A stretch of 64,000 bases of DNA from an uncultured Bacteroidota bacterium (GTDB taxonomy: Bacteria; Bacteroidota; Bacteroidia; Bacteroidales; UBA12481), in the NCBI GenBank assembly GCA_903919065.1, contig CAIXHD010000426.1, positions 1,580 through 65,579 on the forward strand. The letters are read 5' to 3'. Below, piece after piece: positions 38,718 to 39,885 of the stretch. Numbering within the stretch: the first letter of the stretch is position 1; each line of letters begins with the position of its first letter. The notes beneath the pieces were generated by a model that saw only the letters and a list, made by a program, of their open reading frames with translations, had not been told where the DNA came from and ran no database searches. A program made the translations under genes and the position numbers.

Positions 38718-39032
38718 ATGGCTCTTAATCAGGCTAAACATATCATTGAGGTTATCGACGGGACACGCTGCACTTTAGTAGAATCTGGCATGACTGCCGA
38801 GCGTAAAGAGTTTCTGAAAACTATCCTTGAGTTTAACAGCTACGTAGTAAAAGAAGCCTCAGATGAGGCAGGTACCTGGAAGATCGGCGTTACAGACGTT
38901 GTTTTCAATCCTACCATAAATATCTATAAGAGAAAACTTCACAGCCCGAATGGTCTTATTATAACCCCGTCCTACTGGCTGCAGAGCACTGATAAGCAGA
39001 CTGAGGCGGAGGTTAATTACTGGATACAGTAA
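38718..39032 (+). CDS. Small soluble hypothetical protein appended to the nuo operon
   Basis: 104-aa ORF with an ATG 8 nt after the nuoN stop. No TM segment and no motif I recognise. It is the last gene before the terminator region. Confidence 0.5.
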   Translation: MALNQAKHIIEVIDGTRCTLVESGMTAERKEFLKTILEFNSYVVKEASDEAGTWKIGVTDVVFNPTINIYKRKLHSPNGLIITPSYWLQSTDKQTEAEVNYWIQ

Positions 39033-39035
39033 GAG

Positions 39036-39098
39036 GTACTCAGTACTCAGTACCCAGTACTCAGTACTCAGTCGGCAGTACCCAGTCTTCAGGTAGCA
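39036..39098. repeat. Tandem 7-bp repeat array (GTACTCA)n, 9 units
   Basis: Read directly: GTACTCA x4, GTACCCA x2, GTCGGCA, GTCTTCA and GGTAGCA in strict 7-nt register, starting 3 nt after the stop at 39032. Confidence 0.9.
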
Positions 39099-39111
39099 GT
39101 TGGCTTAAATG

Positions 39112-39158
39112 AAAAAAGCAAGAGGCCGTCTCAGTATTGAGGCGGCCTCTTGCTTTCA
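39112..39158. terminator. Bidirectional-type intrinsic terminator hairpin between convergent nuo and psr operons
   Basis: Perfect 11-bp stem GCAAGAGGCCG / CGGCCTCTTGC (39118-39128 / 39143-39153), extendable through TCA/TGA. An A6 tract lies upstream, giving U6 for the minus-strand transcript. TTTC lies downstream, a weaker U tract for the plus strand. Confidence 0.75.
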
Positions 39159-39178
39159 TATCAGGTGATTTTGTTTAC

Positions 39179-39255
39179 TGCAGACTGAGTACTGAGTACT
39201 GAGTACTGAAGACTGAGTACTGGGTACTGAAGACTGAGTACTGTAGACTGCAGAC
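39179..39255. repeat. Tandem 7-bp repeat array (TGAGTAC)n, 11 units; inverted copy of the 39036-39098 array
   Basis: Read directly: TGCAGAC, TGAGTAC x3, TGAAGAC, TGAGTAC, TGGGTAC, TGAAGAC, TGAGTAC, TGTAGAC, TGCAGAC. It ends just before the stop of the rhodanese-like gene. Confidence 0.9.
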
Positions 39256-39258
39256 TAT

Positions 39259-39885
39259 TCAGCATCCTCCGGAAGCCTTTTTCTTACCCGGCTTCTTTGT
39301 CAGACCTGGTTTGACAACAGCACCCTGATCAGCAGGTGCAGCAAGCTGAACTGCTCCCCCACCCCCTAAAGCAGATCCTGCAGCCTGACGGAAATCATAA
39401 CGCGCAAGTTCTTCGTTTGGCGAAGTTGAAGCAGGCTTTTGCGGACTCATAATGGTTTCAATCCAATAATTCAGTCCACCTTCCAGCACAAACAGGTTGT
39501 TATATCCCAGCTGCCTGGTGATCATCCATGCCTCATTGGCTTCAACGCTTCCATTACTGTAAAAGATGTTGGCTTTTAAATCCTGATCCAGAACTTCCGT
39601 CCACTTCTCATTGAGCAAATCTATCAATGGGATATTGATAGCTCCGGGAAGACTGAATTTCTCAAATTCATCCTGATCACGGACATCGATCAATTGAACT
39701 GACGGATCCTTATTGACCAATTTTTCCGCTAATTCATCGGGGCTAAAAAACTGATTTCTTCCCTTGACCTCTTCAAGTAACTGACTTGGGGTTAGTTTAT
39801 ATGGATGAGTTGTATTTTCCGGCACTGCGGCTATTATAAGGCCGAGTCCAACAATGCTTATCGATAAGATTTCTCTGGCTTTCAT
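39259..39885 (-). CDS. Exported/anchored rhodanese-homology protein lacking the active-site Cys, with Lys/Gly-rich tail ending in ...GGC
   Basis: 208 aa. N-terminal hydrophobic segment ILSISIVGLGLIIAAV. Rhodanese fold LIDVRDQDEF...PGAINIPL...LEGGLNYW, but the catalytic loop reads FYSNGSVEA (Ser where Cys is expected). The only Cys is the C-terminal residue (KKPGKKKASGGC). Confidence 0.75.
   Translation of the reverse strand: MKAREILSISIVGLGLIIAAVPENTTHPYKLTPSQLLEEVKGRNQFFSPDELAEKLVNKDPSVQLIDVRDQDEFEKFSLPGAINIPLIDLLNEKWTEVLDQDLKANIFYSNGSVEANEAWMITRQLGYNNLFVLEGGLNYWIETIMSPQKPASTSPNEELARYDFRQAAGSALGGGGAVQLAAPADQGAVVKPGLTKKPGKKKASGGC

What the first reader, a model, noticed from the sequence alone, without database searches (positions are those of the whole stretch)
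39033..39258. Inverted arrays of a degenerate 7-bp tandem repeat bracket the terminator between the nuo and psr operons
Seen in sequence:
- 39036-39098 is 9 consecutive heptamers: GTACTCA x4, GTACCCA x2, GTCGGCA, GTCTTCA, GGTAGCA.
- 39179-39255 is 11 heptamers of the reverse complement: TGAGTAC x5, TGAAGAC x2, TGCAGAC x2, TGGGTAC, TGTAGAC.
- Both arms share the same variant units (TGGGTAC/GTACCCA and TGAAGAC/GTCTTCA), so they are related copies.
- They flank a perfect GC-rich hairpin at 39118-39153.
- The consensus unit embeds the palindrome AGTACT, so each arm can also self-pair in several registers.

The whole 226-bp spacer between two convergent operons is therefore a long, slippery, imperfect palindrome that fills the space from stop codon to stop codon.

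Possible roles: a REP/BIME-like extragenic element, an array of protein-binding sites, a 3'-end RNA stabiliser or insulator between convergent transcription units, or a slippage-prone 7-bp VNTR.
Basis: seen in the sequence. Interest (0 to 1): 0.6.

Follow-up and report, generated by a model that had tools for sequence, protein, structure and literature searches.

The report
Hypervariable heptamer-repeat arrays after two stop codons
The spacer between two convergent operons holds two fast-changing runs of a 7-base repeat around an ordinary terminator; it is one of hundreds of such runs in this genome, a known but unexplained repeat class, and the closest relative carries a small Avd-like gene between the same arms at this site.

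Summary
Window 39036-39098 holds 9 GTNNNCA heptamers and 39179-39255 holds 11 inverted ones. They surround a 16-bp hairpin and fill the gap from stop codon to stop codon.

It is not a device specific to nuo/psr:
- The genome has about 107 arrays of this CAGTNNN family and 413 period-7 tandem arrays in at least 5 families.
- 60 of 100 CAGTNNN arrays start within -18 to +14 nt of a stop codon, with CAGTNNN on the sense strand. At a convergent junction this polarity gives inverted arms automatically.
- The two arms pair no better with each other than with arms from other loci.
- The central hairpin is a generic terminator of this genome. Terminators are not enriched next to arrays.
- Two congeners have no spacer here (TGA|TCA). 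Others carry different repeats.
- Assemblies with an identical flanking protein differ in unit number and order, so the array is a real hypervariable VNTR.

In the closest relative the same junction holds a PF05635 (23S-rRNA-IVS/Avd-like) gene between same-family arms. All 12 PF05635 genes sampled in relatives have inverted arms, 10 of them heptameric.

Verdict: a new member of the known heptamer repeat class (LSSR, STRR, TAACTGA, GGGNATC). The PF05635 link is the interesting lead.

The parts
38718..39032 (+). 104-aa ORF downstream of nuoN, with no Pfam or NCBIfam family. Its TAA stop (39030-32) lies inside a degenerate CAGTAAG unit at the outer edge of the left array.
   Evidence: Conserved in congeners at 73-90% identity.
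39036..39098 (+). Left arm: 9 heptamers of the GTNNNCA (= CAGTNNN) family, in sense orientation for the nuo/ORF104 transcript. The stop-proximal units vary between strains.
39111..39159 (.). Bidirectional intrinsic-terminator-like hairpin: an A-tract, a 16-bp GC-rich stem (39118-39153) with a GTAT loop, then a T-tract. The tail is UUUUUUCAUUU on the minus-strand RNA but only UUUCAU on the plus-strand RNA.
   Evidence: Folds. Similar hairpins occur at five other loci in the genome.
39179..39255 (-). Right arm: 11 heptamers that read TGNNNAC on the + strand, so CAGTNNN in sense orientation for the rhodanese/psr transcript.
39259..39885 (-). Rhodanese-domain gene (208 aa), the last gene of the convergent YeeE/YedE - NrfD/PsrC - PsrB-like cluster. 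Its TGA stop is at 39259-61.

Best explanation
The spacer consists of two solo tandem arrays of one genome-wide heptamer family (constant CAGT plus three variable bases) with a generic bidirectional terminator between them. Each array sits directly after the stop codon of one of the two convergent genes, in the orientation in which that gene's mRNA reads (CAGUNNN)n.

**Shown**
- The family has a fixed polarity relative to gene ends.
- The arrays gain, lose and reshuffle units in 7-nt steps between near-identical strains.
- The site is empty in some congeners.

**Inferred**
- The arrays grow and shrink by replication slippage, as proposed for heptameric long simple-sequence repeats.
- They persist in 3' untranslated regions because changes there are harmless.
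- The large 226-nt palindrome is a by-product of two such arrays meeting at a convergent junction. It is not a selected structure.
- An RNA hairpin spanning both arms would form only on read-through of the central terminator.

The arms have the same polarity and family as the inverted arrays that enclose PF05635 (IVS-protein/Avd-like) genes. The orthologous junction of the closest relative carries such a gene. This element may therefore be a gene-less descendant of that cassette, and this last step is also inference.
For: **Genome-wide family**
- 131 pattern hits against 0 for the control pattern.
- 107 arrays of at least 4 units.
- 413 period-7 arrays, against at most 76 for any other period.
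- 57% of arrays lie outside any ORF of 120 aa or more, although such ORFs cover 92.5% of the genome.

**Polarity**
- 74 of 100 arrays follow a co-oriented gene, and 60 of 100 start within -18 to +14 nt of its stop codon.
- Sense versus antisense counts at stop codons: CAGTNNN 37:10, AAGGCNN 24:0, GTGACNN 16:0, GGCAGAN 8:0.
- All 11 close pairs are F->R and none is R->F.

**Arms are independent**
- Same-locus and cross-locus complementarity do not differ (p = 0.16).
- 83 arrays have no inverted partner within 300 nt.

**Not conserved**
- G012 and G001 have TGA|TCA with a 0-bp spacer.
- G010 has a 26-bp spacer with about 3 units. G011, G006 and G008 carry other repeats.
- Only 3 of 41 relatives carry this heptamer at all.

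**VNTR**
- L184 and L185 have a 261-nt spacer with 12 units in the left arm instead of 8. L186-L192 show further unit orders. All encode an identical ORF104 protein.

**Cassette link**
- In G002 the same junction reads F arm, PF05635 gene, R arm.
- G002:C733 carries a PF05635 gene between GTACTCA/GTCTTCA arms.
- PF05635 genes of this genome lie between GTGACNN, GGGTNTN and AAGGCNN arms.
- 12 of 12 sampled PF05635 genes in relatives have inverted arms, 10 of them with period 7.

**Literature**
- Heptamers are the commonest long SSR class in prokaryotes, and TAACTGA arrays occur in Bacteroidetes (PMC4679880).
- GGGNATC repeats of Xanthomonas and Nostoc lie within 50 bp of stop codons on the coding strand (PMC4692102).
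Against: - Slippage alone does not explain why four positions (CAGT) stay constant while three vary freely. It also does not explain the strict polarity relative to transcription. Both point to a sequence-specific factor or a directional process that was not identified here.
- My gene calls are crude (a dicodon-scored ORF picker), so individual distances to stop codons may be off.
Termination at the hairpin and transcription of the arrays are therefore inferred only.
- A benefit cannot be excluded. The ancestral junction had no terminator at all, so supplying one may have been useful.
Confidence: 0.72

Rival explanations
1. Gene-less hairpin cassette. The two arms plus the centre form one unit descended from, or mobilised like, the PF05635-carrying 'intervening-sequence'-type cassette. 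Once transcribed, the arms pair into a long double-stranded stem that RNase III cuts, which excises the insert from the host transcript as in 23S rRNA IVSs. This overlaps with the best explanation. The difference is that it treats the palindrome as the functional unit.
For: - The orthologous junction in G002 carries a PF05635 gene between same-family arms. The outer junction with ORF104 (AC(T/C)TC-TTA) is shared by G000, G002 and G010, which suggests a single ancestral insertion.
- 12 of 12 sampled PF05635 genes lie between inverted arms.
- Arm polarity is independent of the strand of the enclosed gene.
- The full spacer folds to -132 kcal/mol.
- IVSs are bordered by complementary ends that RNase III cuts (PMC4990558).
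Against: - Most arrays of this family (83 of 105) have no partner arm.
- The arms here are no better matched than random arm pairs.
- The terminator in the middle should stop most transcripts before the second arm is made.
- No sequence similarity was seen between the centre here and the G002 cassette interior.
Confidence: 0.3
2. Selected 3'-end element: an RNA stabiliser, or an insulator that stops the two convergent transcription units from running into each other.
For: - The arrays lie in both 3' UTRs around a strong hairpin.
- Congeners with abutting stop codons have no terminator at all, so the insert supplies one.
Against: - The spacer is hypervariable between strains and absent or replaced in congeners.
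- The same arrays follow about 60 unrelated genes.
- Terminators are not enriched next to arrays.
Confidence: 0.08
3. Array of binding sites for a sequence-specific DNA- or RNA-binding protein that recognises the CAGT core with 7-nt spacing. The pentameric PF05635 protein is one possible candidate.
For: - The core is constant and the other positions variable in every family.
- The polarity relative to transcription is strict.
- PF05635 proteins are Avd-like (PMC10053308).
Against: - No binding data exist.
- PF05635 is present in 36 of 41 relatives, but this heptamer occurs in only 3.
- At least five unrelated heptamer families coexist, which would need several specificities.
Confidence: 0.1
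4. Assembly artefact: a collapsed or mis-joined repeat.
For: - Many contigs in this and other assemblies end inside such arrays.
Against: - Independent assemblies span the whole spacer. L189 is identical to the window except for one SNP, and L184/L185 show a longer allele.
- Each arm is shorter than a typical read.
Confidence: 0.02

Closest known systems
Heptameric long simple-sequence repeats of prokaryotes (Mrazek, Guo and Shah 2007, as summarised in PMC4679880), including the STRR heptanucleotides of heterocystous cyanobacteria (Mazel 1990, cited from my own knowledge)
   Same: - Head-to-tail 7-nt units.
- Hundreds of dispersed, mostly intergenic arrays per genome.
- Several coexisting unit families.
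- Sporadic, lineage-specific distribution.
- Copy number changes in 7-nt steps.
   Different: - The lineage is different: Bacteroidota, inferred from T9SS notes and relatives, and not named by any tool.
- The unit is different (CAGTNNN).
- The classical STRR sequences (CCCCAGT, CAACAGT, TTGGTCA) are not the ones found here, although two of them share the CAGT ending.
TAACTGA direct repeats of Beggiatoaceae, Cyanobacteria and five Bacteroidetes (MacGregor 2015, PMC4679880)
   Same: - Heptamer arrays between genes, including in Bacteroidetes.
- The reverse strand of the unit here, GTACTGA, shares ACTGA with TAACTGA.
- Long mixed-heptamer arrays that are absent from the orthologous spacer of close relatives.
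   Different: - In the Beggiatoaceae genome the arrays lie just upstream of start codons in forward orientation.
- Here they lie just downstream of stop codons, with the complementary strand in sense orientation.
GGGNATC / GGGGAYT repeats of Xanthomonas and Nostoc (Rehm et al. 2015, PMC4692102)
   Same: [quoted passage not shown]
- Under-represented between divergent genes.
- Copy number is variable.
   Different: - Those units carry G-tracts and form G-quadruplexes, with a preference for four units.
- CAGTNNN has no G-tract, and arrays here run from 4 to 26 units.
23S rRNA intervening sequences with an S23p/PF05635 ORF (Coxiella, Leptospira; PMC4990558)
   Same: - Complementary arms that enclose, in relatives and at the orthologous site, a PF05635 four-helix-bundle gene.
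- Sporadic distribution.
- A predicted long stem.
   Different: - It lies in an mRNA 3' region rather than in rRNA.
- No ORF is present in this copy.
- The arms are tandem heptamer arrays.
- RNase III processing is untested.

Membership tests
Heptameric long SSR / STRR-type arrays | Tandem head-to-tail units of 7 nt in several copies | tested here: met
   9 and 11 units.
Heptameric long SSR / STRR-type arrays | Genome-wide excess of period-7 arrays, mostly intergenic | tested here: met
   413 period-7 arrays against at most 76 for any other period. 57% lie outside ORFs that cover 92.5% of the genome.
Heptameric long SSR / STRR-type arrays | Copy number varies between strains in unit steps | tested here: met
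   The spacer is 226 nt here and 261 nt in L184/L185. Unit orders differ although the ORF104 protein is identical.
STRR in the strict sense (cyanobacterial STRR1-3) | The specific units CCCCAGT, TTGGTCA or CAACAGT in heterocystous cyanobacteria | tested here: not met
   The units here are GTACTCA, GTCTTCA, GTCGGCA and similar. The genome shows Bacteroidota-type features.
TAACTGA repeats (MacGregor 2015) | Unit TAACTGA in forward orientation just upstream of start codons | tested here: not met
   The unit differs at 2 of 7 positions. The arrays abut stop codons.
REP/BIME | Imperfect palindromic unit of 20-40 nt, often paired, associated with a RAYT (Y1 transposase) | tested here: not met
   The unit is a 7-nt direct repeat. 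There are two Y1_Tnp hits in the genome (C213 and C15). C15 also carries a 16-unit array about 900 nt from the hit. No association across the family was seen.
MITE | Conserved terminal inverted repeats, a shared internal sequence and a target-site duplication | tested here: not met
   The arms are not specific copies of each other. The centre is unique apart from the terminator motif. No duplication is visible when compared with the empty site in G012/G001.
IVS-type PF05635 cassette | Complementary arms that enclose a PF05635 ORF | tested here: not met
   There is no ORF between the arms here. The ORF is present at the orthologous site in G002 and between heptamer arms elsewhere.
IVS-type PF05635 cassette | Excision from the transcript by RNase III | not testable with these tools
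Intrinsic terminator (central hairpin) | GC-rich stem-loop followed by a U-tract | tested here: inconclusive
   The stem gives -33 to -36 kcal/mol. The minus-strand tail U6CAUUU looks good and the plus-strand tail UUUCAU looks weak. The scan tool did not call it. Similar hairpins sit at five other gene ends.

The most novel reading that the evidence does not exclude
Bacterial heptamer arrays, unexplained since the STRR reports of 1990, may be the arms and footprints of a mobile hairpin cassette that carries a PF05635 (Avd-like, pentameric four-helix-bundle) gene.

On this reading the cassette lands directly after stop codons or in rRNA loops with a fixed arm polarity. It can lose its gene and leave hypervariable arms behind.

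This locus would then be a natural series at one site:
- empty in G012 and G001;
- gene-carrying in G002;
- gene-less in this genome, G010 and G011.
Probability: 0.3. Interest if true: 0.8.

Novelty: new member of a known kind. Interest (0 to 1): 0.45.

Why it matters
As a regulatory element of nuo or psr it does not matter. It is a fast-evolving repeat that happens to sit there.

It matters in three other ways:
- **A clean example of an unexplained class.** Heptamer arrays are abundant in many phyla and no mechanism is known. This junction shows the empty state, the PF05635-gene-carrying state and the gene-less state in one genus. It also shows strain-level unit turnover.
- **Testable hypotheses.** This material allows a direct test of whether the arrays are made or spread by the PF05635 cassette, and of why they are welded to stop codons in one orientation.
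- **Practical consequences.** Such arrays break short-read assemblies, as seen in contigs that end inside them. They could also serve as strain markers.

Tried and rejected
- **REP/BIME and MITE readings.** Rejected; see the membership tests.
- **Arms as an inverted duplication.** Rejected. Same-locus and cross-locus complementarity do not differ.
- **Arrays generally flank terminators.** Rejected. 16 of 105 arrays against 97 of 534 genes at baseline.
- **Solo arrays hide a degenerate second arm.** Rejected. The best inverted match downstream equals the controls.
- **Rfam.** Only sub-threshold chance hits to the hairpin, mir-4524 and a plastid psbA 3' UTR model.
- **Stop-codon content or G-richness as the cause of the polarity.** No rule was consistent across the five families (my own inspection of the units).
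- **PF05635 presence versus GTACTCA arrays.** No correlation. PF05635 is in 36 of 41 relatives and the heptamer in only 3.
- **Other phyla.** Exact (GTACTCA)3 occurs in more than 119 loci of Acidobacteriota, Planctomycetota, Gemmatimonadota, Chloroflexota, Nostoc and others. These loci gave only 9 F->R against 3 R->F pairs and no PF05635 cargo, so that scan was uninformative for the cassette idea.
- **Crude gene calls.** They placed 174 arrays inside ORFs. Many of these look like ORFs extended through stop-free arrays. I did not resolve them.

Full report
**1. Observation**

- 39036-39098 holds nine in-phase heptamers of the form GTNNNCA.
- 39179-39255 holds eleven of the reverse complement, TGNNNAC.
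- Between them lies a GC-rich hairpin at 39118-39153.
- The arrays begin 3 nt after the TAA of a 104-aa ORF that follows nuoM and nuoN. They end 3 nt before the TGA of a convergent rhodanese gene. That gene closes a YeeE/YedE, NrfD/PsrC, PsrB-like cluster.

TRF finds both arrays. The 14-mer GTACTCAGTACTCA with up to 2 mismatches occurs 13 times, all at this locus, against 0.06 expected.

The hairpin is nearly perfect but not fully so. It has 15 Watson-Crick pairs and one T.G position. The whole spacer folds to -132 kcal/mol on the + strand and -125 kcal/mol on the - strand, with z-scores of -12 and -14.

**2. It is one of hundreds**

The window lies in a draft genome of 5.46 Mb in 621 contigs with 45% GC. 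Earlier notes of this scan mention T9SS/Bacteroidota-type genes in it.
- The 18-mer (GTACTCA)2.5 with up to 2 mismatches hits 131 times, against 0 for the backward-read control.
- I found 107 arrays of at least four GTNNNCA units.
- TRF reports 413 arrays with period 7, against at most 76 for any other period. They fall into at least five families, each with a constant core and 2-3 free positions: CAGTNNN, AAGGCNN, GGGTNTN, GTGACNN and GGCAGAN.
- 57% of the period-7/14/21 arrays lie outside every ORF of 120 aa or more, although such ORFs cover 92.5% of the genome.

**3. Position and polarity**

I used a home-made dicodon-scored gene caller that gave 4346 genes.
- 74 of 100 CAGTNNN arrays follow a co-oriented gene.
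- 60 of 100 begin within -18 to +14 nt of its stop codon, always with GTNNNCA/CAGTNNN on the sense strand.
- In eleven cases the stop codon itself lies in the first unit, as GTAGGCA or as ..taG|TC...
- The other families show the same one-sided polarity: AAGGCNN 24:0, GTGACNN 16:0, GGCAGAN 8:0, CAGTNNN 37:10.
- All eleven close pairs of CAGTNNN arrays are F->R and none is R->F. At least seven of them sit between convergent genes.

[quoted passage not shown] So two post-stop arrays at a convergent junction give inverted arms without any further assumption.

**4. The arms are not copies of each other, and the terminator is not part of the repeat**

- Same-locus arms are no more complementary than arms taken from different loci (mean 0.62 vs 0.59, permutation p = 0.16).
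- 83 unpaired arrays have no inverted partner within 300 nt.
- The central hairpin belongs to a small set of A-tract, GAGGCNGNCTC, loop, GAGNCNGCCTC, T-tract hairpins at gene ends.
- Terminator-like sites follow arrays no more often than they follow genes in general (16/105 vs 97/534).
- On the minus strand the stem is followed by UUUUUUCAUUU. On the plus strand it is followed only by UUUCAU. The scan tool did not call the hairpin on either strand, and I did not work out why.

**5. Relatives**

Among 40 relatives, only G002 (56 hits) and G010 (2 hits) carry this heptamer. G008 carries a different one.

The orthologous junction differs from genome to genome:

| Genome | State of the rhodanese / ORF104 junction |
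|---|---|
| G012, G001 | Stop codons abut (TGA\|TCA), 0-bp spacer, no terminator |
| G010 | 26-bp spacer with about three CAGTAGG units |
| G011 | CAGTA(A/G)G array plus two unrelated hairpin repeats |
| G006 | Element with GGCAGAG arms |
| G008 | Three tandem hairpin repeats of about 50 bp |
| G002 (closest, about 90% aa identity) | Rhodanese TGA, 4 CAGTNGG units, a PF05635 gene on the opposite strand (split over two contigs, one in-frame TAA), 11 CTGCCNA units, TTA stop of ORF104 |

The outer junction with ORF104, AC(T/C)TC-TTA, is shared by this genome, G002 and G010. That suggests a single ancestral insertion whose unit content has since turned over.

**6. Strain variation**

Instead I looked up contigs that encode exactly the same ORF104 protein.
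- L189 equals the window apart from one SNP.
- L184 and L185 have a 261-nt spacer. The left arm has 12 units instead of 8. The right arm has a different unit order, and the sequence to the right of the hairpin also differs.
- L186, L187, L190, L191 and L192 show further unit orders near the stop codon, and most of them end inside the array.

The array is therefore real and hypervariable. The inner units and the hairpin are the stable part.

**7. The PF05635 link**

This lead came from earlier notes of this scan, and I tested it here.
- This genome has 7 PF05635 hits. The copy at C13:25869 lies between inverted GTGACNN arrays, C250:480 between GGGTNTN arrays and C503:20454 between AAGGCNN arrays. 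The rest lie between inverted repeats of other periods.
- G002:C733 has a PF05635 gene between GTACTCA/GTCTTCA arms. G002:C505 has one between CAGTNGG arms.
- All twelve best PF05635 genes from eleven relatives have inverted arms, ten of them with period 7. The left arm always reads the same way, whatever the strand of the gene.
- As a baseline, 11 of 1903 small genes have arrays on both sides.
- PF05635 is the 23S-rRNA-IVS protein family and resembles Avd of diversity-generating retroelements (PMC10053308, PMC4990558).
- I found no paper in the searchable library that links it to heptamer arrays.
- The link is one-sided. Most arrays have no such gene nearby, and PF05635 is present in 36 of 41 relatives whether or not they carry this heptamer.

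**8. Conclusion**

The finding is a genuine, well-described instance of a known class: heptameric long SSRs, STRR, TAACTGA repeats and GGGNATC repeats. Here it appears in a new lineage with a new unit family.
- The mirror symmetry follows from the polarity of the family at a convergent junction.
- The terminator is ordinary.
- The element is not conserved, so a dedicated role for nuo or psr is unlikely.

Two features remain unexplained: the constant core and the strict polarity. Both argue for a directional, sequence-specific process. The PF05635 cassette is the best current lead, and this junction offers an empty, gene-carrying and gene-less series on which to test it.

Noticed in passing
G000 contigs C130:714-883, C140:272-441, C206:1584-1721, C340:8722-8855, C420:924-1189, C482:22232-22438, C537:2535-2771, C617:1442-1637: A MITE-like family. 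GGCAGAG/GGCAGAA heptamer arrays form the outer arms and a conserved subterminal inverted repeat (AATTAGT...ACTAATT) lies inside them, with variable cores of 80-205 nt. There are 42 array-end+AATTAGT junctions genome-wide. A copy sits at the orthologous rhodanese/ORF104 junction of congener G006.
   Followed up: partly
window 38718-39032 (+): A 104-aa ORF directly after nuoN has no Pfam or NCBIfam match. It is conserved at 73-90% identity and in the same position in congeners, so it may be an uncharacterised accessory of the nuo cluster.
   Followed up: no
G000 C198:14051-14220, C478:1888-2033, C420 and C537 spacers, C144:7436-7695: Small palindromic dispersed repeats lie nested between heptamer arms. 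Examples are ATAGCCATGGGTTTTAACCCATGGCTAT and GGTTCCCGCC..GGCGGGAACC-type hairpins; the latter motif occurs 25 times. They recall the small dispersed repeats reported in cyanobacteria (from my own memory).
   Followed up: no
G008 (same genus), whole genome and L156: G008 has 33 hits for the backward-read control heptamer (CATGACT-type array) and none for GTACTCA. Its rhodanese/ORF104 junction holds three tandem repeats of about 50 bp, each with a GTAGAGACGCATGATAATGCGTCTCT hairpin. A related hairpin is also present in G011.
   Followed up: no
Genome-contig loci L031-L149: Exact (GTACTCA)3 occurs in more than 119 loci of very distant phyla: Acidobacteriota, Planctomycetota, Gemmatimonadota, Chloroflexota, Actinomycetota, Nostoc and Bacteroidota. 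About 0.3 would be expected by chance in 596 Gb. The same heptamer therefore recurs far beyond this genus.
   Followed up: partly
G000 C173:6411-7220 and C250:14400-14930: Two PF05635 copies, one of them degraded, are flanked by inverted arrays of a longer repeat of roughly 20-22 nt (AGCGACAATTAGCGA...) rather than by heptamers.
   Followed up: no
G000 C15:1781-1966 and C15:2901-3012: A partial Y1-transposase (PF01797) hit lies about 900 nt from a 16-unit GTCTTCA/GTCTCCA array that fills a convergent spacer. This is probably coincidence.
   Followed up: no
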